A stretch of DNA of 64,000 nucleotides, from positions 167,077 to 231,076 of the forward strand of contig JBAZUR010000001.1 in NCBI GenBank assembly GCA_041661305.1, given 5' to 3'. Below the pieces are notes generated by a model. That model saw only the letters and a program-made list of their open reading frames with translations, did not search any database and was not told where the DNA came from. Shown piece after piece: positions 17,746 to 47,652 of this stretch (position 1 is the stretch's first letter; every line of letters starts with the position of its first letter). The stretch comes from Minisyncoccota bacterium. Its GTDB lineage: Bacteria > Patescibacteriota > Minisyncoccia > Phycocordibacterales > VMEP01. The position numbers and the translations under genes are program-made.

Positions 17746-17792
17746 AAATTCCCTCATTTTTGGAGGTTGAGCCTCCAAAAATGAGGGAATTT
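17746..17792. terminator. 21-bp perfect inverted repeat (AAATTCCCTCATTTTTGGAGG / CCTCCAAAAATGAGGGAATTT) with a 5-nt loop; strong hairpin, likely terminator.
   Basis: Inverted repeat read directly. Flanked by A/T runs on both sides, so possibly bidirectional. Confidence 0.55.
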
Positions 17793-18810: not shown

Positions 18811-19356
18811 ATGAAAATGATTGAACATAAAAAAATAATTAGTGCGGTTGCTGTCATTGCAGTCGTTGTCATCTTTACTAATTTTTTTATTTATATAAAT
18901 GGTTCAAAAATAAAAAACAAATCCCAAACACAAAATTTGGGGCTTGAACAATTAGAGCAACATATGGCGGTTGGTGTTGTAGAAAAAATATCCGGACAAG
19001 AAATTACTCTTAATAATGCAAAGAAAATACCAGAGAACACTACTTCTGGTGTTAAGTCAGAATCCCTTGTTGTTATCGTTGATCAAGCAACCACAATAGA
19101 GCGATTTGTTGGGAAAGACACCTTAGTTTTTCAAAAAGAATTGGAAGATTTTGCCAAGAAACAGAAAGAATCTCAAAACACAAATACTCCTGTAATGCCA
19201 CCAGAACCATTTACTCGCGTTAAGATTGGTATTAATGATATTAAAGCTGGAGACACCATTGTTGTTTTCTCAACAATAAATATTAAAAAGCTCACTTCGT
19301 TTACAGCTAAGGAGATAAACGTTCAACCAACCAGAATGGCTACATCGTCAAGATAA
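18811..19356 (+). CDS. Hypothetical secreted or membrane-anchored protein.
   Basis: N-terminal TM or signal anchor. No recognised domain. Confidence 0.45.
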   Translation: MKMIEHKKIISAVAVIAVVVIFTNFFIYINGSKIKNKSQTQNLGLEQLEQHMAVGVVEKISGQEITLNNAKKIPENTTSGVKSESLVVIVDQATTIERFVGKDTLVFQKELEDFAKKQKESQNTNTPVMPPEPFTRVKIGINDIKAGDTIVVFSTINIKKLTSFTAKEINVQPTRMATSSR

Positions 19357-19391: not shown

Positions 19392-21986
19392 ATGAATCAA
19401 CTAATTAAAAGAAATTATGAGTTAGATATCAGTAGTTATATCTATAAAGTAATTTTTGTTTTACTACTATTAATATTTTTAATAGTTCCTAGTTCTTCGT
19501 TGGCGGGAGGAAGTCAGACTTTTACTAGTAGTGGTACATTCTTTGTTCCAAGTGGTGTGACAGCTCTAACTGTGTATGTTGCCGGTGGCGGTGGTGCCGG
19601 AGCTGGTGGTACTAACGAGGGTGCTGGAGCTGGCGGGGGGGGTGGGGGTTATAGCAGTGGAACAATTGCAGTAAGTCCTGGTGGTGCATATGGTGTTACC
19701 GTTGGTGCTGGTGGTTATCATGGAGGAGCTCCTCATTGTGAAGGTGGGGCATCTAGTCCCGGTGGAGACGGTGGTTACTCATATATTGGTGGAATAATTG
19801 CCTATGGCGGTGGTGGTGGGCAAACAGGCGGTGCTCCTGGAGCCGGTGGTTGGGGCAATGTAGCTTATGGTTCGTATGGCTCGTGGCCACCAAGTAGGTG
19901 GGCAAGTAGCGGTGGCGCCGGAGGTTACAGTGGCGCTGGAGGTGCTGGTGGCGCCGGGGGCTCAACGGGCACCGCCGGCACTTGTACTTATTATTATAAT
20001 TGTAATGAGACGTCGTGCGAGTGTGGCGCATGGACTGGTGGGACCCCTGCAGTAAACCCACAACCAGGTGTTTATTATGGAGGTGGAGGTGGAGGTGTTT
20101 GGTCAGCAGCTCCTTTTGTCCCTGCTACTTGTGATTACAGTCCCACTTACGCAGGAAACGGAGCACCAGGATATGTCATTATTTACTGGACCGTAAACCC
20201 TCCCACCGCATCCGCTTCAGTTTCTCCAAATCCCGTTCCCTATAATGCCAATCCTGGATTCACTCTTTCTTCTACAAACGCCTATTATTGCTACCTTCTA
20301 TTAGACTGGTCAACATACTTAGTTGCCGGTTATACAACATCTGGTACTTATTACGCTGGTTCCTTCACTTCTCCAGGAACCCATAGTATTTCCGCTTATT
20401 GTTACAACTCTGAATGGGTCGGCTCCGGCTGGTCAACAACAAATTTTACGGTAAATAATCCTCCCACCGCTTCCGTATCTGTCTCACCAATATCAGTATC
20501 ATACGGTGCTAGCACGAACGTCACCCTTTCTTCGACAAATGCCTATTATTGTCATGTCTACAGAATAAATAGCGTTGGTACTTGGGTTGAGCTACAGAGT
20601 GGATACCTCACCTCTGGTACTTGGAACACAGGTGGTTTGACCGACCCTGGAACACACTATGGAGCGACGTATTGCTACAACTCCTCCTGGGTCGGCTCTG
20701 GTTGGGCGTATGCCGCGTTCACAGTAAGCTCTGCTCCACCTTCCATCAACAACGTCACTATCAGTAACGGTGTTGTGGTCACCAACGCCGTTAACCAATA
20801 CACAATAACCTCAACCGCGACAGATGCCACTGGTGGTAGCGCTATTACCGATGAACTCGCTTTAATAAATTACCAGGGGGTAAATGCTGGTACTTATCGT
20901 GGATATCTTGGATGGTCATCGGTTGGATTCACCCACTTTGGCGGCGCATACAAAACACCACCAATAGCATGTTCTGGTGGTGGCTTAGGGGCAATTTACA
21001 ACGGCTATGGACCACAATACATCAACCTCATATCTTGCAGTACTTCGGTATCAGGGAACACCCGCACTGTCTCATATGTTGTTACCTTCAACACAAATTT
21101 CACTTCTCCGATAAATAGCAACACCATTTCTGGTTATGCCACCAACAGCTCTACTGGCCTATCCAGCGGTTGGTCTCCGTTTAGTGCGTTTACTATTACA
21201 CCAACATGTTCAAATGGTGCCAACAACTATCCAACCTGTAACACCTGCTCTACTCCACTTGGTTGGAATGGAAGTATTTGTACTGTATGTAGTAATGGTG
21301 GTTGTACCAATGGAAATTGTAACAATGGCGCAAACAATCCAGTGAGTTGCTCCACCTGTACCTCACCTGGATTCATTTGGCAGAGCAGTACTAGTTCTTG
21401 TATCCCATCAACCCCACCAACTGCATCAATCATAAGTCCAGCAGTCAACATCACAATATATGATGACCAGATACAACAGTTCACCGGTACAGCTACAGAT
21501 GACGGTACAGTTGTAGCTTACGAATGGCGTACCAGTAATTGCTCCACCGGAACAATTCTTAGCTCTTTAGCAAACTTCGTTAGATCATTTTCTGTTGGCA
21601 CATACACTGTCTATTTCAGAGCTCAAGACAATGCTGGGTCATGGTCAACGAATTGTCCTTCACGAACCATACAGGTAATTGCCCATAATCAAGTTGCAGG
21701 AGTCTGCGGTTCTGCTAACGGTGTCTCATCTCAAAAGAAACCAACATCCAATCTCTGTAACACACTAGGATTACCTGGACCAACTGTATTACCTGTAGGT
21801 ATTGATACTCTTCCTGAAAACAACCCAGCACTCTCTTGGTCTTGGACTTGTGCTGGTGAATATGGCGGTGCTGACACCTTCTGTGGTTCAAACAGCTCTT
21901 GTGGTGATGGCAAGTGCCAGGCTTCAAAGGGAGAGAGCCCTGCTAGGTGCAGGGCGGACTGTAGGGTTAACTTTTTTGAGTTTTAA
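19392..21986 (+). CDS. Large secreted Gly-rich, Cys-rich repeat protein (864 aa), likely cell-surface or adhesin-like. GC-rich compared with its neighbours.
   Basis: Signal/TM segment. Poly-Gly blocks (GGGGAGAGGTNEGAGAGGGGGGY). At least two ~90-aa internal repeats (NPPTAS.SVSP...LSSTNAYYC...SGT...PGTH...YCYNS.WVGSGW..FTV). C-terminal Cys-rich module. Contains a G8 tract at 19635-19642. Confidence 0.7.
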   Translation: MNQLIKRNYELDISSYIYKVIFVLLLLIFLIVPSSSLAGGSQTFTSSGTFFVPSGVTALTVYVAGGGGAGAGGTNEGAGAGGGGGGYSSGTIAVSPGGAYGVTVGAGGYHGGAPHCEGGASSPGGDGGYSYIGGIIAYGGGGGQTGGAPGAGGWGNVAYGSYGSWPPSRWASSGGAGGYSGAGGAGGAGGSTGTAGTCTYYYNCNETSCECGAWTGGTPAVNPQPGVYYGGGGGGVWSAAPFVPATCDYSPTYAGNGAPGYVIIYWTVNPPTASASVSPNPVPYNANPGFTLSSTNAYYCYLLLDWSTYLVAGYTTSGTYYAGSFTSPGTHSISAYCYNSEWVGSGWSTTNFTVNNPPTASVSVSPISVSYGASTNVTLSSTNAYYCHVYRINSVGTWVELQSGYLTSGTWNTGGLTDPGTHYGATYCYNSSWVGSGWAYAAFTVSSAPPSINNVTISNGVVVTNAVNQYTITSTATDATGGSAITDELALINYQGVNAGTYRGYLGWSSVGFTHFGGAYKTPPIACSGGGLGAIYNGYGPQYINLISCSTSVSGNTRTVSYVVTFNTNFTSPINSNTISGYATNSSTGLSSGWSPFSAFTITPTCSNGANNYPTCNTCSTPLGWNGSICTVCSNGGCTNGNCNNGANNPVSCSTCTSPGFIWQSSTSSCIPSTPPTASIISPAVNITIYDDQIQQFTGTATDDGTVVAYEWRTSNCSTGTILSSLANFVRSFSVGTYTVYFRAQDNAGSWSTNCPSRTIQVIAHNQVAGVCGSANGVSSQKKPTSNLCNTLGLPGPTVLPVGIDTLPENNPALSWSWTCAGEYGGADTFCGSNSSCGDGKCQASKGESPARCRADCRVNFFEF

Positions 21987-22038
21987 ACAGAATTTATTTA
22001 ATTGAGAGCTCGCCTTTATTGTATTACAATAGGGGACT

Positions 22039-35333: not shown

Positions 35334-35624
35334 ATCGAAACAAAAAAATTTCAACGGAATATTGAGGATTTTATCTGCAGTGAATGCAGTTTTTCTGTTG
35401 AGGGTAATGGGTACACAAACCATTGCCCCAAGTGCTTATGGAGTAAACACGTGGATATAAATCCAGGTGATCGCGAGTCTGAGTGCTTAGGCGCCATGGA
35501 GCCAATAGGAGTGGAACTTAAAGCGGGGGATTATGTGATCACACATCAATGTGTTAAGTGTAGTTTTGTTCGAAAAAACAAAACCACAAAAGAAGATGAT
35601 TTTAGGGTGATATTAAGCCTATAG
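35334..35624 (+). CDS. RNHCP-domain small protein. The start is uncertain: no in-frame ATG, GTG or TTG after the upstream stop at 35307-35309. The frame reads ...ETKKFQRNIEDFICSECSFSVEGNGYTNHCPKCLWSKHVD...CVKCSF...
   Basis: Hand-translated frame with the TNHCPKCLWSKHVD motif and paired Cys. Absent from the ORF track because no canonical start exists. Confidence 0.45.
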   Translation: METKKFQRNIEDFICSECSFSVEGNGYTNHCPKCLWSKHVDINPGDRESECLGAMEPIGVELKAGDYVITHQCVKCSFVRKNKTTKEDDFRVILSL

Positions 35625-35654
35625 TTAATTTAGTAACGATAAACAGACTTTTGT

Positions 35655-36977
35655 ATGATACAAGTTATTATAGAAAAAAGCGGAGAGAAGATATCTTTTG
35701 ATATCGATACTAATTTTCGTACTGCAATTTTAGGAGAAAATGGTATCGGTAAAACAAGTATTCTTGAAAGTATTACACTAAAGTCTTCAAAAAATGATTG
35801 GTTAACTGTTCATGTTCCAGAGCGAGTTAAGATAGTTTTTCTTTCCCAAATTGAAACTAATACAGGCCTTGTTTCTGGTGGAGAACATATGAAAAAAAGA
35901 CTTGAGTATCTTTTTTCCCAAAAAGCAGATCTCTATGTATTAGACGAGCCAACAAATAATCTCGATGAGAAAAATATTTCTTGGCTTAAAAAACATATTG
36001 TTGAAAACAAATTATCAATTATATTTACTAGTCATAATATAAATTTTATTGACGATTGTGCAGAAGTAATATTTTACCTAGATTCTAAAGGTGTTGAAAA
36101 AACAAAAGAACGATGTTCTTTGTATTTAGTATCGCGTAAAAAAAAGATTGAAAGAGAGTTTTTAATGTATGATATCGCTATTAAAAAACAAGAAGAACTT
36201 AAAGATGCTGCCCGAAAAGCAAAACAACACAGCGAGGCTGGAGAAAAATGGAAGGGAACAGATAACGACAAGTATTTAAGAGGATTTAATAGAAATTCTG
36301 CTGGTAAAGGAGCGGCCACGGCAAGAATGCTTGGAGAAAGGGCAGAAAAAATAAGCGTTGAAAAACCACAACATGACCCCATTCCGAAAGCCCTGTTTTT
36401 GGACTTAGGTTTTGTCGGTAATTTATTTAACTTACTTTCTACATCTTTATCGCAAAAAAGAATTAGTCTTTTAGTAAATAGCGGAGATAAAATTCTTATT
36501 ACTGGACCAAATGGTGTCGGAAAGACCACCTTTCTCGATTATTTAGTAGGTCTTTTAAATGGTCTAGCGCAAAAAAGTGAAGATATGTTTAATCGTGGCG
36601 GTAAATTTTCATATTATTATATTTCACAAAATTGGTATGAAAATTTAAATGACCAGACGGTAGGAGAATACCTAAAAAACTTTGGTTTAAATGAGGCAGA
36701 AATCTATAGGTCAATTTCTTTTAATCATATAGACAAGTCTATTTTAAATAAAAAATTTAAGAATGTATCACCAGGGATAAGAATTAAAGTTCTTTTAGGG
36801 GCTCTTTCTTGTAAAAAATTAGATTTAATAATTTGGGATGAACCAACAAACCATCTTGATGTTATGACTCAATACGTCTTAAGGGATGCACTTCTAAAAT
36901 ACGCTGGATCTCTTATTCTTGTTTCGCATGATAGATTATTTTTGGACGATAGTTCGTTTACCCGTGTTACGTTGTAA
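35655..36977 (+). CDS. Minimal ABC-F family ATPase (two tandem NBDs, no TM domain, no NBD1 arm).
   Basis: Walker A GENGIGKTS and GPNGVGKTT. Q-loop VFLSQ. Signature VSGGEHMKKRL. ABC-F-type Walker B/D-loop LDEPTNNLD and WDEPTNHLD. Inter-NBD linker CSLYLVSRKK. The second signature is degenerate (VSPGI). Confidence 0.7.
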   Translation: MIQVIIEKSGEKISFDIDTNFRTAILGENGIGKTSILESITLKSSKNDWLTVHVPERVKIVFLSQIETNTGLVSGGEHMKKRLEYLFSQKADLYVLDEPTNNLDEKNISWLKKHIVENKLSIIFTSHNINFIDDCAEVIFYLDSKGVEKTKERCSLYLVSRKKKIEREFLMYDIAIKKQEELKDAARKAKQHSEAGEKWKGTDNDKYLRGFNRNSAGKGAATARMLGERAEKISVEKPQHDPIPKALFLDLGFVGNLFNLLSTSLSQKRISLLVNSGDKILITGPNGVGKTTFLDYLVGLLNGLAQKSEDMFNRGGKFSYYYISQNWYENLNDQTVGEYLKNFGLNEAEIYRSISFNHIDKSILNKKFKNVSPGIRIKVLLGALSCKKLDLIIWDEPTNHLDVMTQYVLRDALLKYAGSLILVSHDRLFLDDSSFTRVTL

Positions 36978-37012
36978 TAAAATGTTTAAATTAACATATA
37001 CAAGTAGCCTTT

Positions 37013-37841
37013 TTATGAGCGCTCCTTTATAAGCTTGTATAACAATGGACGGATAGTCGTAATATCTTTATGGAACGACAAGTGACCAAGCGGTAGTTTG
37101 TGGATAGCAATACCATATTTTTTGCAAATAGTACTCAGTTCCGAAATTTTAATTTGATTATCTTCTTCTCCCGCAACAACAGTACATTTTGATGGGTTAA
37201 ACATGGGATCCTTTGAAAGCATGTCGAGAGATATTAGTTCATCACTCAAGAGTTTCTTCCAGTTTTGGTTAGAATATCGATAGGCGCCACTAAATGCTTC
37301 TTTTATAAATGAATCCAATGTCTCTATTCCTGGTACTTCCGACATGGAATAGGCCGGGGATAGTGCAATCACAGACGTAATATCTTCACTGAGGCTAGTA
37401 TTAAGAGCAACCAACCCCCCCCAAACTAGACCCTAGAACCAACACGCGATTAACGTTAAAATTTTTCCCCTGCAAGACTACTCCACTTTTAAGACTGTGC
37501 GCTAATTTTCGAATATCTTCCGCTGGGTTATGGTCAAGAAACTCACCACCCGATTCCCATGTTCCTTTAAGTCTTGGGTAAAAAGCTGCATACCCCCACG
37601 AACATAAAAGATTGAGGAATGATAAAAGTTCTGGTGTGCGTGGCAAACCATCAAGAACTATTATTGCCAAGTTATAATTTTCCGGAAGACAATATTCGAA
37701 GACAACATCATCGATTGACCCGCATTGCAAACGTTCCTTTTCTCTTGAAGGTAGGATGCGGGATGCAAGGTTCTCCTTAAAATATTTAACAAGTTTTTTA
37801 GAAATACTTTCAATGACAGTGAGGTATGAATTTTTTACCAT
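37013..37841 (-). pseudogene. Alpha/beta-hydrolase (GxSxG, dienelactone-hydrolase/peptidase-like) split by a +1 frameshift inside a G8 homopolymer (minus strand; C8 on plus at 37415-37422).
   Basis: ORF 37401..37841 ends ...LVLGSSLGGVGCS*. ORF 37013..37414 begins (TTG) LVALNTSLSED. Deleting one G restores a continuous ...GSSLGGLVALNTS... nucleophile-elbow sequence. Confidence 0.65.
37415..37422. repeat. C8/G8 homopolymeric tract at the frameshift site.
   Basis: ccaaCCCCCCCCaaac read directly. Such tracts are rare in this AT-rich context. Confidence 0.8.
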
Positions 37842-37956
37842 ATTTAACTATTGTATCTCAATATTATTTTTACCAAAATAAACACAAATTTTTATATTTA
37901 CTCACAAACAATACTAGTATCAATGACATTTTGTTTTATACAATATCTTTTTTGCA

Positions 37957-38871
37957 TTATTTTTTCGTTAAAACATCCGCAATTTTTATAAAAAAATCCT
38001 CATCTACTTTCTTTTTATTGTTTATATATTCCCAAAAGAAATCTTTACAATAAAAGGAATATAAATAATAAACTCTATGAAAATTATGATTATTTTTTTG
38101 ATTAAATTTTCCAATTAATAATTCTTCCTTGTCCCTGTATTTTTTAGGATTGTATTTTTGTAAATTATATATATTCTCTTTTTCTCCAAGATAACTAAAA
38201 TCCCAGTTTGAGAATAAGTTTGCAAGTATCTCTCTTGTTATATAATACCCATTTCCAAATTCTTTTTTTAGTAAGAACCATGACTTATAGAAATTCTCTT
38301 CTCTCGGCTTAAAAACTGTTTTAATTTTCTCTAAAACATGATCCCTTTCATATAGATGTGCAAGTTCGTGAACTAAATTAATTTTCAAATTTTCAATATA
38401 ACCTTTGCTTTTTTTGTTTAGCACATAAACATAAATAGAATTTGTTCTGGAGCTTGCACTAGCGCCAACATTTTTTCTGTCCGAATAGGTAGGGATGAGA
38501 TATACGGCGACGTTCTTGACTTTAGTCCCGTAAAAATTCCCCATAGCTTTTACTATGTCCTCAGTCTCAAAATTTTCTATTATATTTTTGGTGAATATAA
38601 AATTTTTGCCATTTCTTATCTCAAAGTCTTTTTTCGAAATTATATTTTCTATATATGAAAATAGTTTTTTTTCTAATTCTTGACCACCTTCTTTTTTTTC
38701 AGTCAACAAAGATTTTATTTCTTTTAAATTTTTATGCGTAAAAAATATTTTTTTTACGTTCAGGAACTCTTCTTTTGCGAAAGATGGAAGCATTTTACCT
38801 TCTTTCTCTTTAATGAAGTTAATTACCAATCTATCAACAAAGACCTTGTAGCCGTAATTTATTTTTAACAT
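37957..38871 (-). CDS. Putative zinc metallopeptidase (HExxH), hypothetical. Very AT-rich.
   Basis: HELAHLYERDH motif with downstream Glu. 304 aa. No signal peptide obvious. Confidence 0.55.
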   Translation of the reverse strand: MLKINYGYKVFVDRLVINFIKEKEGKMLPSFAKEEFLNVKKIFFTHKNLKEIKSLLTEKKEGGQELEKKLFSYIENIISKKDFEIRNGKNFIFTKNIIENFETEDIVKAMGNFYGTKVKNVAVYLIPTYSDRKNVGASASSRTNSIYVYVLNKKSKGYIENLKINLVHELAHLYERDHVLEKIKTVFKPREENFYKSWFLLKKEFGNGYYITREILANLFSNWDFSYLGEKENIYNLQKYNPKKYRDKEELLIGKFNQKNNHNFHRVYYLYSFYCKDFFWEYINNKKKVDEDFFIKIADVLTKK

Positions 38872-38966
38872 ATCGTGGAGTTATTTATTGATAGCTATTT
38901 TAAGATTAATTTAAATGAAAACGGGCAGAAGCGCAAAACTTCTACCCGTATGACCCAGAAAGTGGG

Positions 38967-39053
38967 TCAAGCCGGGGGATTCCCGGGGTTGTTGCCCTGT
39001 TCGTCCGCTGGGGTGGAATCCCAGTCGTCGTCGCCACCAAACAACTTTTTCAT
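38967..39053 (-). CDS. Candidate small ORF (28 aa, MKKLFGGDDDWDSTPADEQGNNPGNPPA) with a strong RBS, inside a GC-rich about 160-bp element upstream of the HExxH gene.
   Basis: AAGGAGA then 7 nt then ATG on the minus strand. Local GC is far above the flanks. Could instead be a structured RNA. Confidence 0.25.
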   Translation of the reverse strand: MKKLFGGDDDWDSTPADEQGNNPGNPPA

Positions 39054-39247
39054 CTGAGTCTCCTTGCGACTTACCGGTTGAGAAATCTCAACCATTTAAT
39101 AATCCAATTAAAGCATGACGCTTTATTTGCGTTGTGTCAACGAGTTTATAATTTTATGGAAATACGGTGTGTTTAGACAAATATAACCTAAAAAAGTGTT
39201 TTAATTTTTTGCCACAATGTGTTACAAGGGGTATATTTTAAAGTAAT

Positions 39248-39700
39248 ATGAAAATAAAGATAAAATCTAAAAAGATTTTAGAAAAATCATACGGTATAAT
39301 TGTTGCTTATAAACAAAGCAGTACGGAGACAAAATACCTTATTATTCAAAGCAAAGGTACGAATGATTGGAGTTTTCCAAAAGGACATGCCGAAAAAGAT
39401 GAAACTTCAGTTGAGACTGCATTAAGAGAACTAAAGGAGGAAACCGGAATCTCGCAAATAAGTCTTATTCCCGATGTGTCATTCTCTGATAAGTACAGAT
39501 ATAAAGCCAATGGTATATGGAATCGAAAACAAGCTACATTCTTTGTTGGTATTACAGATAATCTAAATGTAAAAATACAACAAGAAGAAGTGGTAAATTA
39601 TATCTGGTCTAATTATGATGATGCGGTAAAAATTCTAACTTTTGAAAATCAACGAAAAATCTTGCGTGAAGCCTATTCTAAAATACTAGAAATCAATTAG
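39248..39700 (+). CDS. NUDIX hydrolase (Ap4A/NTP pyrophosphohydrolase-like).
   Basis: Canonical Nudix box GHAEKDETSVETALRELKEETGIS. Confidence 0.8.
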   Translation: MKIKIKSKKILEKSYGIIVAYKQSSTETKYLIIQSKGTNDWSFPKGHAEKDETSVETALRELKEETGISQISLIPDVSFSDKYRYKANGIWNRKQATFFVGITDNLNVKIQQEEVVNYIWSNYDDAVKILTFENQRKILREAYSKILEIN

Positions 39701-39798
39701 TAATAAGTCACAGTGTGTTCCTATGTACTGAAAATAATAATTATAGTATTGTAGTGTAATCCTACATAAACAGATAGATCCAGTTTAAATTGATTTTT

Positions 39799-41139
39799 AT
39801 GACCAAAGTTATTACACGTTTTCCACCTTCCCCAACTGGAGAAATTCATATTGGCAACATGCGAACCATGTTGTTTAATTATTTGTATGCAAAATATTTT
39901 AATGGAGAGATTTTCCTTAGGTTTGAGGATACTGATAAAGAAAGGAGTAAAAAGGAATACGAATCTATTGTCATAGATGGGTTACATGCTTTAGGTTTAA
40001 ATTTTGACCATGGTCCATTCAGGCAATCAGAAAGAGGTGCTATCTATAAAGAAAAATTATTAGAACTCATCAAGCTTGGACGTGCTTATGAAGCTGAAGA
40101 CTCATTGGGTGGTTCTGGAAAAGCCATTAGGTTCAAGAATCCGAACAAAATTATAACCTTTGATGACAAAGTTCGTGGTCATGTATCTATTGATTCAAGT
40201 ATTTTTGGTGACTTTGTTATTGCGAGGAATATTGATAATCCAATTTACCATTTTGCTGTTGTTGTGGATGACATGGATATGGGAGTTACCCATATAATTA
40301 GGGGGGAAGACCATATTACAAGTACTCCTAGGCAGATACTTCTACTAGAAGCTTTGGGTGGGAACATACCCGTTTATGCTCATTTGCCACTCATTGTTGG
40401 CGAAGACAAGAAGAAATTGTCTAAACGACATGGTGCCACCTCTGTCAGCGGTTTTTTAAAGCAAGGTTATTTGCCGTCTGCTTTAGTTAATTATCTTGCA
40501 TTCTTGGGATGGAACCCTGGGGGCGAACGGGAAATATACTCATTAAAAGAGTTAACTGAGATATTTGGTTTGGATAGAGTGGGCAAAAATCCAGCTAAAT
40601 TTGATTACAATAAACTCAATAATATAAATTATCATTACATGATTAATTTATCCGAAGACGAATATAGGACAAATCTTTTTATGTTTTTAAATGAAGAATA
40701 CTCCAAACTTTTTAATGCTAATTTCACTATTTCTAATACAGTAATACAAAATGTAATAAAACCAAGAATAAAAAAGTTTTCGGAAGTGTCGGACATGATC
40801 ACTAACGGGGAACTAGATTATTTTTTTAAGAAGCCACCAGTAAATTATGATTTGATTCGGTTTAAAACTGATTCTATTGAAAAGACAAAAAGCATTCTTG
40901 AAAAGTTAAAGGTATTAATAGGGAACATATCAAGTAATGACTGGAACACGGATGGTTTGAAAAATAATATATCTACGCTTTTTACAGAATACGGTGTTGG
41001 AAATGTTCTCCACCCTCTAAGAGTTGTTTTATCGGGGAAAAAAGAATCTCCAGATCCATTCACGTTAAGCTATATTCTGGGCAAAAAAGAGACTTTGGAG
41101 CGAATTGATTCCTGTCTTGCTAAGCCAAATAATTTGTAA
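39799..41139 (+). CDS. gltX: Glutamyl-tRNA synthetase, copy 1 (within the AT-rich island).
   Basis: PSPTGEIHIGNMRTMLFNYLYA (HIGH region), KLSKRHG (KMSKS), full-length anticodon-binding domain. The ORF-track start at 39790 is TTG; ATG at 39799 (MTKVITRF) preferred. Confidence 0.85.
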   Translation: MTKVITRFPPSPTGEIHIGNMRTMLFNYLYAKYFNGEIFLRFEDTDKERSKKEYESIVIDGLHALGLNFDHGPFRQSERGAIYKEKLLELIKLGRAYEAEDSLGGSGKAIRFKNPNKIITFDDKVRGHVSIDSSIFGDFVIARNIDNPIYHFAVVVDDMDMGVTHIIRGEDHITSTPRQILLLEALGGNIPVYAHLPLIVGEDKKKLSKRHGATSVSGFLKQGYLPSALVNYLAFLGWNPGGEREIYSLKELTEIFGLDRVGKNPAKFDYNKLNNINYHYMINLSEDEYRTNLFMFLNEEYSKLFNANFTISNTVIQNVIKPRIKKFSEVSDMITNGELDYFFKKPPVNYDLIRFKTDSIEKTKSILEKLKVLIGNISSNDWNTDGLKNNISTLFTEYGVGNVLHPLRVVLSGKKESPDPFTLSYILGKKETLERIDSCLAKPNNL

Positions 41140-42038
41140 TGAAATATATTGACAATTCAACTTATAAATATAACAAAACGTACCCAATAGTTAAGTTGTC
41201 GGATATTTATTTAGATCAAAAAGATGAAGGGGTGTTGTTAGAAAAAATTAAAGATTCCCCCTGGTATATATACAGTTCAGATTTGATTAAAAAAAATTCA
41301 TTCCTAAAATTAAAACAAATAATATCGTTAACCAAAGACGTTGAGTTAATAGTAAAAACATATTATCCCAATATTAATATCAAGCACCTTTCTATTGGTG
41401 GATCTTATCTTTTCAAAAACGGAGAGTCCAATGATATTGACTTTAACGTAATAGTTGAGGGTAGCTTTTTTGATTATATGGATGTTTTTGAGTTTGATGA
41501 AATTAATAAAAAATTATTTTCCAAAGTCAAAAAAATATCCTTTATGATTTTTGGCGAGGATGATTTATTGTTTGACACTAATATTGATGACACCATTGAA
41601 ACCACTAATTATATCCATACCTCGCTTTGTATGAGAGAGGGGGTTGTTTTCTCGATTAGAAATATCCTTGTGCATGGGTTCGATATATGTAAAAAAGAAA
41701 TTGACACACATAATTTGATAATAAGAATTAAAAGACAGTTGTATCATGCTCGACTCTTGGTTGACGGTAAGGTTAATATACATACAACACAAGAAGAAAG
41801 ATTAGCAAAAGCAGTTAGTCGTATATGTGAAGCAGCTTTTTACCTATCATTAGTATTTCCAGAATTAAAAATTGACCCCGAATCAGTTTTTGAAAGAGAA
41901 ACGACATTGATTACAGAAGGCAACGCAACTGGCGCTTATAGCTGGCTTAAAGAGGTTGAATTTATAGCAGATAATATTGTTGTGAAAGTTTTAAATAATG
42001 GTTATCATGACTCCGTAAGCCCCTATCGTCTAACGTAG
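41139..42038 (+). CDS. Pol-beta-superfamily nucleotidyltransferase domain protein (about 300 aa; MNT/AbiEii/CCA-like GS...DxD core).
   Basis: LSIGGSYLFKNGESNDIDFNVIV matches the hG[GS]-x(9-13)-DhDh NTase motif. Start ATG overlaps the gltX stop (TAATG). Confidence 0.5.
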   Translation: MKYIDNSTYKYNKTYPIVKLSDIYLDQKDEGVLLEKIKDSPWYIYSSDLIKKNSFLKLKQIISLTKDVELIVKTYYPNINIKHLSIGGSYLFKNGESNDIDFNVIVEGSFFDYMDVFEFDEINKKLFSKVKKISFMIFGEDDLLFDTNIDDTIETTNYIHTSLCMREGVVFSIRNILVHGFDICKKEIDTHNLIIRIKRQLYHARLLVDGKVNIHTTQEERLAKAVSRICEAAFYLSLVFPELKIDPESVFERETTLITEGNATGAYSWLKEVEFIADNIVVKVLNNGYHDSVSPYRLT

Positions 42039-42088
42039 GACGTCATCTAATTGAGATGAAAATTTAGGTTCGATACCTAGTAGGGGTT
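42019..42088 (+). ncRNA. tRNA-like cloverleaf candidate (non-canonical anticodon loop) overlapping the 3' end of the NTase gene.
   Basis: Acceptor GCCCCTA/TAGGGGT (7 bp incl. G:U). D-stem GTC/GAC. Anticodon stem TCATC/GATGA with loop TAATTGA (no U33). T-arm TTAGG-TTCGATA-CCTAG (near-consensus T-loop). Not validated by any tool. Confidence 0.2.
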
Positions 42089-42098
42089 CTAGAAAAAA

Positions 42099-43283
42099 AT
42101 GTCAAAAAAGGTGATATTAAATAGCCAGTGTCTCCCTAAAAAGAACTACCATTGTGGAAACGCTGTCAGTCATATTGTTTCTGAAATATCTTATCTTTTT
42201 TTTACTGAATTTGATAAAAAAAATGATTTTTATTTTGTGAATGATTCTTGGAATTTGCATGGTTTACCATTTGAGACCATGTACGTTGAAAAGTTTGGCT
42301 CAAATATAAATTACGAAAAAATAAAAGATTTTGCCGAGGAATGTATTAATTATGCAAAGCACGAAAAATCTTTTTTTAGCAACATTAAGCTTGGTCCAAA
42401 CATTATTGAGCATTCAGATACTGATCCGGAGTTTGTTAGATATACAACCGATATATTTCATGAATTAATAGATAGTAAAATCATTATTAAGACAGGAAAT
42501 CATTATTCTCTTGATCTATTATCAATTAAGAACACTTTAAATTTTGATGGAATAAAAATATTTCCAAGTCAACATAGAACAACAATAGTAAACGACGCAA
42601 AAATGATAAATGGTTTATATCCGATTACAAAAAATAGAGTTTTTTCGCCAAGTATTAATATAGATAATATTAACTACGTTATAAATCCTATTTTTCAGTC
42701 TTTTGTATATCCTTTGTATATAAGCGAAAAGTATGGATTTAATTACCCGGTTTTTTTGTTTACGAGTTCATCTGGACATGGAATGCTTAAGTGGCATTAT
42801 CTTAGAAATATTGTTTCTTTTGCATTGTCACAAAATCATCCGTATGAAAACCTGGTTTTGCACGGGAATATCCTGGGCGCAAACAATAGAAGAATGAGTA
42901 AACATGACAACAATGTTGTTAAGCCGTCGGATTTATATAAAATTCTACCCGATAGAAGATTTGTTAGGCACGTACTAATCAAGTCTATCTCGGACAAAGA
43001 TTTAATGCTTCAGACTGATATCTCTTTTTCAGAATTTAACAAAATAAAGAATAAATTGGACATAATACACACTAATGAATTTAATATACTAAATCCTAAA
43101 AACTTAAATATTACATTGACTAGTATTAAAAACGATTTAAAAAACTTTAAAATAAAAAAAGCTTTTGATTGTTTTGTTGATTTTATTAGAAGAGCCCAGA
43201 TAGTACAAACAGATAGCGTTGTTGATGGCGAGTTTCTTGAGTTAATAAAAATCTGTAATGTTTTTTATGGAAACAAAAAATAA
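42099..43283 (+). CDS. Degenerate GluRS-like class-I aaRS paralog (394 aa); catalytic motifs mutated.
   Basis: NYHCGNAVSHIVSEISYLF aligns with the GluRS HIGH region (HIGN..RTxLFNxLxA). VLHGNILGANNRRMSKHDNNVV aligns with the GluRS HLPLI....KLSKRHG block. Confidence 0.5.
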   Translation: MSKKVILNSQCLPKKNYHCGNAVSHIVSEISYLFFTEFDKKNDFYFVNDSWNLHGLPFETMYVEKFGSNINYEKIKDFAEECINYAKHEKSFFSNIKLGPNIIEHSDTDPEFVRYTTDIFHELIDSKIIIKTGNHYSLDLLSIKNTLNFDGIKIFPSQHRTTIVNDAKMINGLYPITKNRVFSPSINIDNINYVINPIFQSFVYPLYISEKYGFNYPVFLFTSSSGHGMLKWHYLRNIVSFALSQNHPYENLVLHGNILGANNRRMSKHDNNVVKPSDLYKILPDRRFVRHVLIKSISDKDLMLQTDISFSEFNKIKNKLDIIHTNEFNILNPKNLNITLTSIKNDLKNFKIKKAFDCFVDFIRRAQIVQTDSVVDGEFLELIKICNVFYGNKK

Positions 43284-43369
43284 TACCTAGAATTCATAAG
43301 ACTTTTGGGGTATAATTTTTCCATGAGTCTTTATAAAATTTCTTATATTTTGGTGCGTGAAGTAAAAAT

Positions 43370-44059
43370 ATGAAGCACCAAGATAATTTACTGCTTGAAA
43401 CTGCTTACCACGTAATAAGAATAATTCTCTCCCCTTTAGTTAAGTTGTTTTGGATTAAACAAGTGGTCGGCCTTGAGAATATACCGCAAAAAGGTGCTGT
43501 AATATTTGCTTTTAACCACCAAAGTTACTTTGATTTTATTTGTTTTATTGCTGTGTGCCCTCGCCATGTTCATTATCTTTCAGCAGAAAAATTTTTCACC
43601 AACTCTTTTTGGAACCCAATCATGAAAATAATGGGACAAATTAGAGTTGAAAGAACAAGTAAAGATAAAAGAGCGCTACATAATTTAATTCAAAAACATT
43701 TGGAAAACGGTAAAATTATTGGGATTTTTCCAGAGGGGACAAGGTCCCCACACCCCGAGAAAATGCTTGAAGCCTATAGTGGAGTAGCTCGATATTCATA
43801 TCACGGCAATGTTCCCGTTATCCCTGTAGGGATTAAGGGAGCATATGAGGTAATGTCTCGTTTTGACAAAAAACCAAAAGTTAGAAAAAGTATCGAAATT
43901 ATTATCGATAAACCAATTGACTTGTCGCCGTATCATCACAGTAAATTAAACCGAAAAGCTTTTAAGGTGATAACAAATAAAATAATGGTAAGAATTGCAG
44001 AACTTTCAGGAAAAGCTTATCCATATAAAATTTATCCTCCATGGCCACAGAAAATCTAG
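43370..44059 (+). CDS. 1-acyl-sn-glycerol-3-phosphate acyltransferase-like (PlsC family), copy 2.
   Basis: VIFAFNHQSYFDFI (HX4D-type block), IFPEGTRSP. Confidence 0.75.
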   Translation: MKHQDNLLLETAYHVIRIILSPLVKLFWIKQVVGLENIPQKGAVIFAFNHQSYFDFICFIAVCPRHVHYLSAEKFFTNSFWNPIMKIMGQIRVERTSKDKRALHNLIQKHLENGKIIGIFPEGTRSPHPEKMLEAYSGVARYSYHGNVPVIPVGIKGAYEVMSRFDKKPKVRKSIEIIIDKPIDLSPYHHSKLNRKAFKVITNKIMVRIAELSGKAYPYKIYPPWPQKI

Positions 44060-44706
44060 CAATTTTTGATATTGACGGAACGCTAATTCGTGGGCAAAGC
44101 CAGAAGTCTTTGCTTATGTTTCTTTACAGCGGGGGTTATATTTCACATTGGTATTATTTCAAAATAATGATTTGGTTCATCTTATATCAACTGCACTTCA
44201 TCGATAGTCCAAAAAAAGTAATGGAGTACGCTTTTTCTGTTTTTAAGAATACTCGAGAAGATAGAGCAAAAGAAATTATTGATGAATATTTTGAATTACA
44301 TTTAAAATATAAATTTTATAATGATGGCTTGAAGCTTATTGAGCAACTAAAGGGAGAGGGGTACAGAATTATATTGATATCAAATGCTATTAATTTGATT
44401 GTAGAGAGGATTGAAAAATACCTCAAAGCTGATGATTCAATTGGAACAATACTCGAGGTAGTTGACGGGCGACTTACTGGAAAGATTGATGGTTCAATCG
44501 TATATGGTTTAGAAAAAAAGAGGGTACTTGAAGAATATTCACGCAAAAACGACATAAAATTAAGCAATGCTTCTGCCTACGGAGACCATATTTCAGATAT
44601 CTCTATGTTAGAATTGGTAGGTCACCCATTTGTTGTTAACCCATCAAATAGGCTAAGTAGTATTGCAATCAAAAAGGGGTGGCCAATATTGATTTTTAAA
44701 AACTGA
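44041..44706 (+). CDS. HAD-superfamily hydrolase, subfamily IB (phosphoserine-phosphatase-like).
   Basis: Motif I IFDIDGTL. Capped HAD-IB architecture. Motif III/IV (GDHISD). Confidence 0.7.
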   Translation: MATENLAIFDIDGTLIRGQSQKSLLMFLYSGGYISHWYYFKIMIWFILYQLHFIDSPKKVMEYAFSVFKNTREDRAKEIIDEYFELHLKYKFYNDGLKLIEQLKGEGYRIILISNAINLIVERIEKYLKADDSIGTILEVVDGRLTGKIDGSIVYGLEKKRVLEEYSRKNDIKLSNASAYGDHISDISMLELVGHPFVVNPSNRLSSIAIKKGWPILIFKN

Positions 44707-44707
44707 A

Positions 44708-46297: not shown

Positions 46298-46387
46298 TTT
46301 TTTTGATATAGACCAGTATTAATATACATGCTACTATCTTTATGATTAGTCAATCCTGACTGATGCTATTTTTTATGGAGGTGTAAT

Positions 46388-46588: not shown

Positions 46589-46607
46589 GATTTGCCTGCC
46601 TTCACTT

Positions 46608-46635
46608 AAAGCGTTTTTGTTTTCAAGAACGCTTT
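46608..46635. terminator. Hairpin AAAGCGTT-loop-AACGCTTT followed by a T-run between convergent genes.
   Basis: Read directly. 8-bp stem, 12-nt loop, TTTTTTT. Confidence 0.45.
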
Positions 46636-46642
46636 TTTTATT

Positions 46643-46978: not shown

Positions 46979-47100
46979 ATTTTAATTATATCCTGAATTG
47001 CAAAATTCTACGAGCGCGCCGTGGAACCCTCCATTAAATGTAAAAAACACTACGTAGGGCGTCGAAAAAGTCTGGGGTTTTTTATGATACGATAAGCACT

Positions 47101-47637: not shown

Positions 47638-47652
47638 ATAAAAAAATCAGGT

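What the first reader, a model, noticed from the sequence alone, without database searches (positions are those of the whole stretch)
19392..21986. GC-rich 864-aa Gly/Cys-rich repeat surface protein with an internal G8 tract; compositional outlier
In a window averaging low GC this gene is strikingly GC-rich. It encodes poly-Gly blocks (GGGGAGAGG...GGGGGG), two or more about 90-aa repeats ending in ...YCYNS.WVGSGW..FTV, and a Cys-rich tail (CSNGANNYPTCNTCSTPLGWNGSICTVCSNGGCTNGNCNN...). The N-terminal TFTSSGTFFVPSGVTALTVYVAGGGG motif resembles the glycine-rich N-termini seen in phage minor-tail or receptor-binding proteins and bacterial adhesins. A G8 run lies in-frame within the Gly codons, giving a route to length or phase variation. 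Candidate host-attachment factor, relevant if this organism is an episymbiont.
Basis: partly seen in the sequence, partly recalled or inferred. Interest (0 to 1): 0.55.

Follow-up and report, generated by a model that had tools for sequence, protein, structure and literature searches.

The report
Exported protein with phage-fibre-like tip
This gene of a tiny 'candidate phyla radiation' bacterium encodes an exported, bead-on-a-string protein whose tip is the same glycine-rich binding domain that many phages carry at the ends of their tail fibres; it is a native, conserved gene rather than foreign DNA, and its run of eight Gs looks accidental.

Summary
The ORF (19392-21986, +, 864 aa) is real and matches an NCBI 'Candidatus Paceibacterota' hypothetical protein. 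The poly-Gly blocks, two ~90-aa repeats (54% identical), Cys-rich stretches and the G8 run are all present.

GC is 47% against 37%, but the excess lies at codon position 2 (Gly/Ser/Thr/Ala/Pro). GC3 is normal. Five orthologues have the same composition, and the two long contigs keep the same housekeeping neighbours. The gene is therefore not an acquired outlier.

The N-terminal domain (aa 40-270) is a Pfam Gly_rich_2 domain, the TNF-like plus polyglycine fold. It is homologous to the receptor-binding tip of the cyanophage Pam3 tail fibre (E 2e-14), with distant fold matches to ALK/LTK. It follows a conserved signal peptide. Behind it come beta-sandwich repeats, an unknown conserved domain, a Cys-rich spacer, a PKD domain and a Cys-rich C-terminal module ending in FFEF.

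The G8 tract is absent from all orthologues and is expected by chance in 7-37% of recodings.

My best reading is an exported binding protein; an adhesin role is inferred, not shown.

A side finding: a ~180-aa membrane-protein gene sits next to this gene, and its homologues sit next to other large exported proteins with a similar C-terminal tail.

The parts
18811..19356 (+). Adjacent gene for a 181-aa protein with one N-terminal transmembrane helix; candidate partner (anchor or assembly factor) of the large protein
   Evidence: It lies 35 nt upstream on the same strand. The adjacency is conserved in all orthologous loci where the upstream region is visible: L001, L002, L010, L012, plus a fragment in L011. 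Homologues (HMM E 1e-11 to 1e-43) lie next to other large exported proteins with a similar C-terminal tail in L004, L008 and L009. It has no Pfam, NCBIfam, PHROG or PDB match.
19392..19508 (+). Signal peptide (aa 1-39): basic n-region, hydrophobic core VIFVLLLLIFLIV, then PSSSLA|GG
   Evidence: It is the only 19-aa window with Kyte-Doolittle hydropathy above 1.6; the maximum elsewhere is 1.19. Orthologues keep the hydrophobic core and an S/T-x-A motif 2-3 residues before the TFTSSG strand. No dedicated predictor was available.
19509..20201 (+). TNF-like plus polyglycine ('TG', Pfam Gly_rich_2) domain, aa 40-270; the presumed ligand-binding head
   Evidence: PF21722 scores 40.1 bits against a cut-off of 24.3. 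The profile hits Pam3 tail fibre gp24 residues 84-274 at E 2.3e-14 and RemZ residues 2-200 at E 2e-12. The AF2 model has pLDDT 83 and pTM 0.79. The top 26 Foldseek PDB hits are all Bxb1 gp33, the Pam3 fibre or LTK/ALK TG domains. There are 273 viral hits, including annotated tail fibres.
19635..19642 (+). G8 homopolymer inside the conserved GGGGGG segment (codons GGC GGG GGG GGT)
   Evidence: It is the only G run of 7 or more in the window. A +/-1 slip gives a stop at aa 88 or 94. The tract is absent from five orthologues. Its chance expectation is 7-37%.
19974..20171 (+). Lineage-specific, Cys-containing insertions in the TG domain (aa 195-260); the most variable part of the head
   Evidence: These are insertion columns relative to other Gly_rich_2 domains. 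Conservation among the six family members is lowest here, 0.56-0.61. dN is 0.23-0.38 here against 0.06-0.16 in the middle domain. pLDDT is lower, 49-79.
20202..20462 (+). Repeat A (aa 271-357), a beta-rich ~90-aa module ending YCYNSEWVGSGW..FTV
   Evidence: It is 54% identical to repeat B. The orthologues P0003, P0005 and P0006 carry an A-type copy only. The same module occurs in tandem arrays in other CPR proteins, P0008-P0020. It has no Pfam match.
20463..20738 (+). Repeat B (aa 358-449)
   Evidence: P0002 and P0004 carry a B-type copy only; this protein alone has both.
20739..21200 (+). Conserved middle domain of unknown function (aa 450-603), all-beta in the model
   Evidence: It is the most conserved segment among orthologues, 0.85-0.93 over aa 481-580, with the lowest dN. 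It also occurs in P0009 and P0012. It has no Pfam or PHROG match. In the AF2 model (aa 266-864) the pLDDT over the model positions for this domain (about 185-338) ranges from 50 to 90.
21201..21407 (+). Cys-rich spacer (aa 604-672, 10 Cys) of variable length
   Evidence: It is partly deleted in P0004 and P0006. It has no family match. It is low-confidence in the model.
21408..21689 (+). PKD-type Ig-like domain (aa 673-766)
   Evidence: PF00801 gives E 5.7e-5 at 23.5 bits, which equals the cut-off, when the domain is scanned alone. There are weak PDB sequence hits to the KIAA0319L and ColH PKD domains. Model pLDDT is about 80-90.
21690..21986 (+). C-terminal Cys-rich module (CGSANG...SWSWTC...CGDGKC...CRADC) ending in the tail FFEF-COOH; presumed attachment or sorting end
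   Evidence: The PKD domain plus this module is shared by a differently built 1122-aa exported protein in L001. All 20 CPR-type hits end in a hydrophobic-x-E-hydrophobic tail, against 0 of 13 non-CPR Gly_rich_2 proteins. There is no transmembrane helix. It has no family match.

Best explanation
The gene encodes a Sec-exported, modular extracellular protein of a Paceibacteria-type (CPR) bacterium.

After signal-peptide cleavage, the mature N-terminus is a TNF-like plus polyglycine ('TG', Pfam Gly_rich_2) domain. This is the same domain that forms the receptor-binding distal tip of phage tail fibres such as cyanophage Pam3 gp24. It also sits at the N-terminus of RemZ, a secreted surface-adhesin homologue of Bacteroidota.

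This head is carried on a stalk of beta-sandwich modules: two CPR-specific ~90-aa repeats, a conserved unknown domain, a Cys-rich spacer and a PKD domain. The protein ends in a Cys-rich module with a hydrophobic-x-E-F carboxy-terminal tail.

I infer that the C-terminal end is the cell-proximal end. It may be held by, or assembled with, the small membrane protein encoded next door, leaving the TG head as the distal ligand-binding tip. The ligand would be a surface glycan or protein of another cell or of the environment.

Shown: the ORF, domain identity by sequence and predicted fold, the export-signal features, conservation of gene position, and native composition.

Inferred: surface retention, the orientation, the partner protein, and binding as the function.

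The GC excess is a by-product of the Gly/Ser/Thr/Ala/Pro-rich sequence. The G8 run is most likely an accident of Gly codon choice.
For: Domain identity:
- PF21722 above the gathering score and PHROG 863 in the 'tail' category.
- A 21-sequence profile hits Pam3 fibre gp24 at E 2.3e-14 across its TNF-like and glycine-rich part, and RemZ residues 2-200 at E 2e-12.
- The AF2 model has pLDDT 83. Every PDB Foldseek hit with E below 1 is a TG-fold protein: Bxb1 gp33, Pam3 (TM about 0.5), and LTK/ALK (TM about 0.27).
- There are 273 viral structure hits with TM up to 0.69, many annotated as tail fibres.
- The Pam3 paper assigns receptor recognition to these domains and notes the resemblance to S16 gp38 and ALK (PMC9608196). 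[quoted passage not shown]

Export:
- There is a single N-terminal hydrophobic segment and a conserved S/T-x-A motif directly before the domain.
- Charged residues are only 5.6%, and Ser/Thr/Asn/Gly/Tyr content is high.

Architecture:
- The domain is N-terminal in 60 of the 150 best-scoring representatives, so this layout is common in cellular proteins.
- The head evolves faster than the stalk: dN 0.19-0.38 against 0.06-0.16, and identity 0.56-0.80 against 0.85-0.93.
- The gene is a mosaic. Repeat A or B is present or absent among orthologues, and dS against L011 is 1.6 in the TG core (0.9 in the TG tip) but 0.36 at the C-terminus.
- The C-terminal module is shared with another exported protein. 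The tail motif and the neighbouring small membrane protein recur together.

Native origin: GC3 is normal, and synteny and composition are conserved.
Against: - No experiment or expression data exist for this protein or any close relative.
- No signal-peptide predictor could be run.
- There is no recognisable anchor: no LPXTG, transmembrane helix, lipobox, or S-layer or cell-wall-binding domain. The protein might simply be released.
- The stalk model is poor overall (mean pLDDT 57.6) and gives only generic beta-sandwich matches.
- dN/dS is below 1 everywhere, and dS is near saturation. There is therefore no proof of diversifying selection on the head.
- Phage TG domains work as trimers on a helical shaft. 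No trimerisation element is seen here.
- The ligand of any cellular Gly_rich_2 domain is unknown.
Confidence: 0.6

Rival explanations
1. It is a contingency (phase-variable) surface gene. Slippage of the G8 tract switches the protein ON and OFF.
For: The G8 is in frame, early in the gene, and the only G run of 7 or more in the window. A +/-1 change truncates the product at aa 88 or 94. The window's only other G/C8 run (37415-37422) coincides with a frameshift that splits an alpha/beta-hydrolase gene. Tracts of this length therefore do change length here, either in the cell or in the assembly.
Against: None of the five orthologous genes has a G/C run of 8 or more, and all use mixed GGN codons at this site. 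The gene uses GGG less than the genome does (8% against 19%). A run of 8 or more arises in 7-37% of synonymous recodings. Eight Gs is at the low end of tract lengths that are known (from my own knowledge) to switch at useful rates. No population data are available.
Confidence: 0.07
2. It is horizontally acquired or phage-derived DNA: a prophage tail-fibre gene or a recent island. This would explain the GC excess.
For: GC is 47% against 37%. The head domain is homologous to phage tail-fibre tips.
Against: The GC excess is confined to codon position 2, and GC3 (0.346) is within about 1 SD of the neighbours. The flanks are mnmA, MgtC, EamA and alaS, with no phage, integrase or tRNA gene adjacent. 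The position and composition are the same in two relatives at 73% and 59% identity. A signal peptide is present and the domain is N-terminal, the opposite of the phage-fibre layout. No tail module or chaperone gene is present. An ancient transfer of the domain between phages and cells is not excluded.
Confidence: 0.04
3. It is a released, soluble protein rather than a cell-attached adhesin. The TG head would deliver or localise the conserved middle domain, which would carry the real but unknown activity, for example carbohydrate binding or degradation.
For: No known anchor motif was found. The middle domain (aa 450-603) is the most conserved part and has no known family.
Against: The middle domain shows no catalytic-family signal and models as a plain beta-sandwich. 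The shared C-terminal module, the recurrent C-terminal tail and the adjacent membrane-protein gene argue for a dedicated retention or assembly system.
Confidence: 0.2
4. It is a structural envelope component (S-layer-like or fibre matrix protein) with no specific ligand.
For: The composition is low-charge and rich in Ser, Thr, Asn and Gly. The architecture is tandem beta-sandwich. The gene sits among housekeeping genes.
Against: The distal TG domain is a dedicated recognition module wherever its role has been studied (PMC9608196). The head is the fastest-evolving part, with lineage-specific tip insertions. The family is very narrow: 7 loci in 185,579 species genomes and only one of them full length. 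That is unlike a core envelope protein.
Confidence: 0.09

Closest known systems
Cyanophage Pam3 tail fibre gp24 (PDB 7YPX / 7YFW): TNF-like plus glycine-rich receptor-binding tip
   Same: The sequences are homologous across the whole TNF-like and glycine-rich region (profile E 2.3e-14). The predicted fold is the same (Foldseek E 1e-6, TM about 0.5). Both have the GGGGxGG core segments and variable loop tips.
   Different: In Pam3 the domain is C-terminal, follows a trimerising alpha-helical shaft, needs the chaperone gp25, has no signal peptide and is part of a virion (PMC9608196). Here it is N-terminal, directly after a signal peptide, in a cellular gene among housekeeping genes. It also carries extra Cys-containing insertions (aa 195-260).
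[quoted passage not shown]
   Same: Both have an N-terminal Gly_rich_2 domain (profile E 2e-12 to RemZ residues 2-200). In both, a long multi-domain body follows and a C-terminal targeting module ends the protein, giving the same overall polarity.
   Different: RemZ ends in a T9SS C-terminal domain and crosses an outer membrane through SprA/PorV (PMC10994853). This protein has no such domain. From my own knowledge, CPR bacteria have not been reported to have T9SS. Its C-terminus is a Cys-rich module with an FFEF tail of unknown function.
ALK/LTK receptor 'TG' supradomain (TNF-like plus glycine-rich; e.g. PDB 7NX1, 7LS0, 7N00)
   Same: The fold class is the same. After the phage proteins, the next 20 or so Foldseek hits are all LTK/ALK TG domains (E 3.5e-3 to 0.3). 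The Pam3 paper reports the same link.
   Different: The relationship is only distant: TM about 0.27, 13-18% identity, and no sequence-profile hit to ALK/LTK among PDB sequences at E up to 10. Those are animal cytokine receptors with a membrane-proximal EGF-like domain and a kinase.
T-even phage gp38 adhesins (Salmonella phage S16 gp38, PDB 6F45): polyglycine-II sandwich
   Same: A glycine-rich lattice with variable tips is used for receptor recognition, and the Pam3 authors relate it to gp24.
   Different: It did not appear among the Foldseek or sequence hits here. S16 gp38 has a beta-helix, not a TNF-like domain, beneath the lattice (PMC9608196).
Phase-variable surface genes with homopolymeric tracts (e.g. 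in Neisseria, Haemophilus, Campylobacter; my own knowledge)
   Same: A G8 run sits early in the ORF of an exported protein, and a slip truncates the product.
   Different: The tract is not conserved in orthologues and not enriched over chance. No length variants were observed.

Membership tests
Pfam PF21722 Gly_rich_2 (TNF-like + polyglycine 'TG' domain) | Match to the family HMM above the curated gathering score, over nearly the full model | tested here: met
   The score is 40.1 bits against a cut-off of 24.3, E 5.6e-10, covering model positions 1-225 of 226 and protein aa 45-266.
Pfam PF21722 Gly_rich_2 (TNF-like + polyglycine 'TG' domain) | Sequence homology to a structurally solved member | tested here: met
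   The profile of A1 hits Pam3 gp24 at E 2.3e-14 (residues 84-274) and RemZ at E 2e-12.
Pfam PF21722 Gly_rich_2 (TNF-like + polyglycine 'TG' domain) | Fold: a beta-sandwich from which glycine-rich extended segments pack into a lattice | tested here: met
   This rests on prediction only. The AF2 model has pLDDT 83 and pTM 0.79, with high-confidence non-helix, non-strand Gly segments. All PDB Foldseek hits with E below 1 are TG-fold proteins. There are 273 viral hits. No experimental structure exists.
Pfam PF21722 Gly_rich_2 (TNF-like + polyglycine 'TG' domain) | Receptor or ligand binding by the loop tips | not testable with these tools
   This is proposed for Pam3 gp24 in PMC9608196. Here there is only indirect support: the tip insertions are the most variable part.
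Phage tail fibre / receptor-binding protein | Encoded in a phage or prophage tail module, with baseplate, tape-measure or chaperone neighbours | tested here: not met
   The neighbours are mnmA, MgtC, EamA, a small membrane protein and alaS. The same holds in L001 and L002.
Phage tail fibre / receptor-binding protein | An N-terminal virion-attachment or trimerising shaft with the binding domain at the C-terminal tip, and no export signal | tested here: not met
   The domain is at the mature N-terminus, right after a signal-peptide-like segment.
Horizontally acquired compositional island | Atypical synonymous (third-position) composition or codon usage relative to the host genome | tested here: not met
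   GC3 is 0.346 against 0.309 +/- 0.035, while GC2 is 0.613 against about 0.35.
Horizontally acquired compositional island | Patchy presence or variable location in relatives, with a mobile-element or tRNA boundary | tested here: not met
   The position is the same in L001 and L002, and no tRNA or integrase is adjacent. Caveat: in L010 and L011 the downstream gene is a membrane protein rather than alaS, so downstream synteny is not universal.
Homopolymer-tract phase-variable (contingency) gene | A tract long enough to slip, inside the ORF, with a frameshift that abolishes the product | tested here: met
   G8 lies at 19635-19642, and a +/-1 slip gives a stop at aa 88 or 94.
Homopolymer-tract phase-variable (contingency) gene | The tract is maintained, or varies in length, among related strains, and is enriched over chance | tested here: not met
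   Five orthologues have no run of 8 or more and use mixed codons at the site. The chance expectation is 7-37%.
Homopolymer-tract phase-variable (contingency) gene | Length heterogeneity within a population | not testable with these tools
   Reads are not available, and the protein is on record from one contig only.
T9SS-secreted adhesins (RemA/RemZ type) | A C-terminal T9SS sorting domain | tested here: not met
   No CTD family matched in Pfam or NCBIfam at E up to 1.
Sortase / exosortase-type C-terminal sorting signals | A short motif followed by a transmembrane helix and a basic tail | tested here: not met
   The protein ends ...CRVNFFEF with no hydrophobic segment; the maximum hydropathy outside the signal peptide is 1.19.
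PKD domain (PF00801) | An HMM match at or above the gathering score | tested here: inconclusive
   The score is 23.5 bits, exactly equal to the cut-off, when aa 673-766 are scanned alone. Only related Ig-type families appear weakly in the full-length scan. The model is confident here.

The most novel reading that the evidence does not exclude
Paceibacteria and other CPR bacteria may have a previously undescribed way of displaying large surface proteins. The cargo would be marked by a carboxy-terminal hydrophobic-x-E-hydrophobic tail (FFEF, FKEF, FSEF and similar). It would be held or assembled by a small single-pass membrane protein encoded next to it.

In this gene the displayed cargo is a domesticated phage-fibre-type receptor-binding head. 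Its variable Cys-rich tip loops and shuffled stalk repeats would set which partner cell the episymbiont recognises.
Probability: 0.2. Interest if true: 0.65.

Novelty: new member of a known kind. Interest (0 to 1): 0.35.

Why it matters
How ultra-small CPR/Patescibacteria recognise and hold on to partner cells is largely unknown; published work centres on type IV pili (e.g. PMC12206443, seen).

This gene shows that a Paceibacteria lineage places the receptor-binding domain type used at phage tail-fibre tips on a stalked, exported protein. It gives a concrete, clonable candidate (aa 40-270) for binding studies.

On its own, however, the domain is very common: 13,593 cluster representatives at E up to 1e-10. 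The function here is inferred, so the finding is useful annotation rather than a surprise.

The more original lead is the side observation of a recurrent C-terminal tail together with an adjacent small membrane protein. This could point to how CPR cells retain surface proteins.

The analysis also removes two tempting but wrong readings: that the gene is foreign DNA, and that the G8 is a programmed switch.

Tried and rejected
- The word-indexed homologue search with the N-domain alone was swamped by Gly-rich words. It returned 7 weak hits and missed even the orthologues.
- The same search with the C-terminal 103 aa returned nothing.
- The AF2 model of aa 266-864 was poor (mean pLDDT 57.6; repeats, Cys spacer and C-terminus below 50). 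Its Foldseek hits (complement C3 MG domains, GhpA, FN3, RbmA; TM about 0.12) say only 'tandem beta-sandwiches'.
- I looked for a diversity-generating-retroelement-style template repeat or any long repeat of the gene in the window and found none.
- The window contains no paralogue of the head or the stalk.
- The promoter-like scan was not above expectation, with 11 sites against 10.2 +/- 3.2 expected. Terminator-like sites were somewhat above it, with 9 against 4.5 +/- 2.3 (about 2 SD). Only a strong hairpin after mnmA (17746-17792) and a promoter-like site before alaS (22002-22030) are worth noting.
- Literature searches for a CPR C-terminal sorting signal, or for glycine-rich CPR adhesins, found nothing relevant.
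- The small neighbouring protein has no match in Pfam, NCBIfam, PHROGs or PDB sequences.
- I considered and rejected a prophage tail fibre, a T9SS substrate, and a sortase- or exosortase-anchored protein (see the membership tests).
- The dN/dS analysis is limited by near-saturated dS of about 1 or more. I use it only for relative rates between domains.


Full report
OBSERVATION

The ORF 19392-21986 (+) exists exactly as described: ATG start, 864 aa. The identical protein is on record as a hypothetical protein (WC724_01145) of a 'Candidatus Paceibacterota' metagenome-assembled genome, on a 476-kb contig. The window therefore comes from a CPR/Patescibacteria bacterium.

The gene is 47.2% GC against 37.3% for the rest of the window. 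It has 16% Gly and 3.7% Cys. It contains the quoted N-terminal motif and poly-Gly blocks.

There are two adjacent repeats, aa 271-357 and 358-449, which are 54% identical (E 5e-23). At the DNA level they have diverged, with no long exact repeats.

There are two Cys-rich regions. The real C-terminus (aa 767-864) is a second Cys-rich module.

The G8 run lies at 19635-19642, in frame, inside the conserved GGGGGG segment. It is the only G run of 7 or more in the window.

COMPOSITION IS NOT A SIGN OF FOREIGN ORIGIN

The GC excess is at codon position 2: 0.613 against about 0.35 in 36 other ORFs. Position 3 (0.346) is within about one standard deviation of the neighbours (0.309 +/- 0.035). This is what a protein rich in Gly, Ser, Thr, Ala and Pro must look like in any genome.

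Five orthologous genes recovered from other assemblies have the same GC (45.6-47.6%) and GC3 (0.32-0.35). Their flanks are 36.8-37.6% GC where measurable.

On the two long contigs, the orthologues at 73% and 59% identity sit in the same place. The order is: sigma factor, DUF8128, YceG, RNase T, mnmA, MgtC, EamA, ~180-aa protein, this gene, alaS, two unknown genes, then infA and ribosomal genes.

No tRNA, integrase or phage gene is adjacent. In two shorter contigs (L010, L011) the downstream gene differs, so downstream synteny is not absolute.

THE G8 TRACT

A +/-1 slip would stop translation at aa 88 or 94, so an ON/OFF switch is mechanically possible. Three results argue against a selected device.

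- None of the five orthologous genes has any G/C run of 8 or more. At this site they spell the same six glycines with mixed GGN codons.
- The gene uses GGG less than the genome does, 8% against 19% of Gly codons.
- Re-drawing the 138 Gly codons produces a G run of 8 or more in 37% of trials at genome usage, 8% at the gene's usage, and 7% when the gene's own codons are shuffled.

I rate phase variation as unlikely but not excluded. Read-level data would settle it.

THE N-TERMINAL DOMAIN

Residues 45-266 match Pfam PF21722 (Gly_rich_2) over the full model and above the gathering score. They also match PHROG 863 in the 'tail' category.

I aligned the domain with 20 relatives (A1). The shared pattern is x-F-T-S-S-G-x-F-x-V-P-x-G-V, several G-G-G-G-x-G-G segments, and a closing G-x-G-x-V-x-I-x-W strand.

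A profile of this alignment finds, among PDB sequences:
- the tail fibre of cyanophage Pam3 (7YFW/7YPX, E 2.3e-14, covering residues 84-274 of 280);
- the N-terminus of Flavobacterium johnsoniae RemZ (8GL8_D, E 2e-12);
- weakly, mycobacteriophage Bxb1 gp33.

[quoted passage not shown] It reports structural similarity to S16 gp38 and to ALK (PMC9608196). [quoted passage not shown]

An AlphaFold2 model of aa 39-270 is confident (pLDDT 83, pTM 0.79). In Foldseek against the PDB, every hit with E below 1 is a protein of this fold: Bxb1 gp33, the Pam3 fibre (TM about 0.5), and then some twenty LTK/ALK 'TG' domain entries (E 3.5e-3 to 0.3, TM about 0.27).

Against predicted viral structures there are 273 hits at E up to 1e-3, with TM up to 0.69. 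Many are annotated as tail fibres, and some are giant-virus collagen-like proteins.

The domain is very common. An exhaustive profile search of 1.84 billion cluster representatives gives 51,816 hits at E up to 1e-3 and 13,593 at E up to 1e-10. Gly-rich bias may inflate the weaker tier. Among the best 150 hits, the domain is near the N-terminus in 60, at the extreme C-terminus in 12, and internal or repeated in 78. An N-terminal head on a long cellular protein is therefore an ordinary layout for this domain.

EXPORT AND THE REST OF THE PROTEIN

The only hydrophobic segment is aa 10-38; the maximum Kyte-Doolittle value elsewhere is 1.19. It is followed by PSSSLA|GG. Orthologues keep the hydrophobic core and an S/T-x-A motif two or three residues before the first strand of the domain: TSLA|ES, ISLA|ES, VSIA|GS, FSFA|DT, ISSA|GT. 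I read this as a Sec signal peptide, so the head is the mature N-terminus. No dedicated predictor was available.

Downstream features:
- Repeats A and B have no Pfam family. They occur in tandem arrays in other CPR proteins attributed to Moranbacteria, Zambryskiibacteria and Kaiserbacteria.
- The middle domain (aa 450-603) is the most conserved part among orthologues (0.85-0.93 identity) and has no known family.
- The Cys-rich spacer varies in length between orthologues.
- Residues 673-766 are a PKD-type domain. PF00801 scores exactly at the cut-off when the segment is scanned alone, there are weak PKD hits among PDB sequences, and this part of the model is confident.

The model of aa 266-864 is poor overall (pLDDT 57.6). 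Its structural matches say no more than 'string of beta-sandwich domains'.

MODULARITY

Orthologues carry either an A-type or a B-type repeat; this protein alone has both. One relative (P0007) replaces the glycine-rich head with a different N-terminal domain. In L001 a second, differently built 1122-aa exported protein ends in the same PKD plus CGSANG plus CGDxKC...FFEF module.

Divergence is uneven along the gene. Against L011, dS is about 1.6 in the TG core (0.9 in the TG tip) and 0.36 in the C-terminal module, which indicates recombination.

Non-synonymous divergence is two- to four-fold higher in the head (0.19-0.38) than in the middle domain (0.06-0.16). It is highest, or nearly so, in the lineage-specific Cys-containing insertions at aa 195-260. 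All dN/dS values are below 1 and dS is near saturation. This shows a faster-evolving head, not proven positive selection.

The full-length family is narrow. A scan of one genome per 185,579 species found 7 loci, only one of them full length.

MECHANISM (BEST READING)

The protein is exported. Its TG head is the distal binding module and the beta-sandwich modules form a stalk. The C-terminal module is the cell-proximal end.

The last point rests on three observations: the shared C-terminal module, the tail motif and the gene neighbour described below, and the analogy with RemZ-type proteins, whose targeting signal is C-terminal.

What the head binds is unknown. By analogy with phage fibres it would be a surface glycan or protein of another cell, which would suit an episymbiotic lifestyle. 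Nothing here tests that.

C-TERMINAL TAIL AND NEIGHBOURING GENE (SIDE FINDING)

All 20 CPR-type proteins retrieved by the first homology search end in a hydrophobic-x-E-hydrophobic tail, sometimes followed by two more residues: FFEF, VEEF, IIEF, FKEF, FQEF, FTEF, FGEF, FQNF, FIED, VKEI, WQEIAL, WREVAP and similar. These proteins have several unrelated architectures and at least three different last domains. None of the 13 non-CPR Gly_rich_2 proteins has such a tail.

Among 139 ORFs of 150 aa or more in the window and the fetched loci, only six have the strict motif. All six are 720-1120 aa, and five of them start with an N-terminal signal-like segment. The sixth (L004) was called from an internal Met because of an apparent frameshift in that assembly.

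The 181-aa gene just upstream (18811-19356) encodes a protein with one N-terminal transmembrane helix. It is adjacent to the target in every orthologous locus where the upstream region is visible. Homologues (E 1e-11 to 1e-43) lie directly next to other large tail-bearing exported proteins that lack the glycine-rich head. These are in L004, L008 (two copies) and L009, a Kaiserbacteria chromosome.

The small protein has no match in Pfam, NCBIfam, PHROGs or PDB sequences. The pairing suggests a dedicated anchor or assembly partner. The sample is small and was selected through the large proteins, so this is a lead and not a result.

COMPARISON WITH KNOWN SYSTEMS, AND VERDICT

At the domain level this is a clear member of a known family, Gly_rich_2 / TG fold. 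It works most like the receptor-binding tips of phage fibres. In architecture it is most like RemZ-type secreted adhesins.

It is not a phage tail fibre: the context, polarity and signal peptide all fail that test. It is not a T9SS substrate or a sortase-type protein, because no such signals are present. The evidence does not support it being an acquired island or a contingency gene.

The novelty rating is 'new member of a known kind'. The specific architecture is confined to a small Paceibacteria clade, and all function is inferred.

Interest is moderate to low for the finding as posed. The tail-plus-neighbour observation is the part most worth following up.

Noticed in passing
window 21975-21986 (C-terminal FFEF); also P0001-P0020 and loci L001, L004, L005-L009: All 20 CPR-type large exported proteins retrieved end in a short carboxy-terminal tail of the form hydrophobic-x-E-hydrophobic, with or without two extra residues (FFEF, FKEF, FSEF, VKEI, WQEIAL and similar). 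The tail follows at least three unrelated last domains. None of the 13 non-CPR proteins with the same glycine-rich domain has it. No transmembrane helix follows, so it is unlike sortase or exosortase signals. It may be an undescribed sorting or retention tag.
   Followed up: partly
window 18811-19356 (+); homologues at L001:9398-9937, L002:9382-9951, L010:4056-4604, L012:2890-3447, L004:2069-2707, L008:137-700 and 930-1526, L009:7368-7889: A ~180-aa protein with one N-terminal transmembrane helix and conserved motifs (EQHMAVG, PPEPFTR, IKxGD) is encoded directly next to the target gene in all orthologous loci. Its homologues lie next to other large tail-bearing exported proteins in three further CPR lineages. 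It has no match in Pfam, NCBIfam, PHROGs or PDB.
   Followed up: partly
window 37013-37841 (-), C8 run at 37415-37422 on the + strand: Two consecutive minus-strand ORFs (146 and 133 aa) are halves of one alpha/beta-hydrolase-like gene with a GSSLGG nucleophile elbow. The gene is split by a frameshift inside the window's only other G/C run of 8. Deleting one G gives an uninterrupted 275-aa ORF that matches UPF0227, Hydrolase_4 and Abhydrolase_6, whereas the halves match nothing. This is an assembly homopolymer error, a pseudogene or real slippage.
   Followed up: partly
window about 35600-48500: This stretch has lower GC (0.29-0.36 against about 0.39 elsewhere). It contains an ABC-type ATPase, a GluRS-like gene, a short class I tRNA-synthetase-like ORF, a 7TM histidine kinase and several ORFs without Pfam matches. 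A tRNA-Asn with the unusual anticodon ATT is called at 42019-42089.
   Followed up: no
L001:5839-9207: A relative's genome has an extra 1122-aa gene inserted between EamA and the small membrane-protein gene. It ends in the same PKD plus CGSANG plus CGDxKC...FFEF module as the target. It also contains an internal transmembrane segment followed by a second signal-like sequence, so it may be two fused or mis-joined genes.
   Followed up: no
window 17746-17792 (+): A perfect 20-bp-stem hairpin follows mnmA. No comparably strong terminator-like hairpin lies between it and the end of the target gene; the four other plus-strand matches in that interval have short stems of 5-8 pairs and lie inside coding sequence. 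MgtC, EamA, the 181-aa gene and the target may therefore form one transcription unit. A promoter-like site (TTGAGA-17-TACAAT) precedes alaS at 22002-22030.
   Followed up: no
L005:673-1443 and L007:282-1058: Large exported CPR proteins that end in the other tail type (CNSG[TG]W[QR]EIA[LQ]) are each preceded by a conserved ~257-aa membrane protein. That protein differs from the ~180-aa family, which hints at a second cargo-partner pairing.
   Followed up: no
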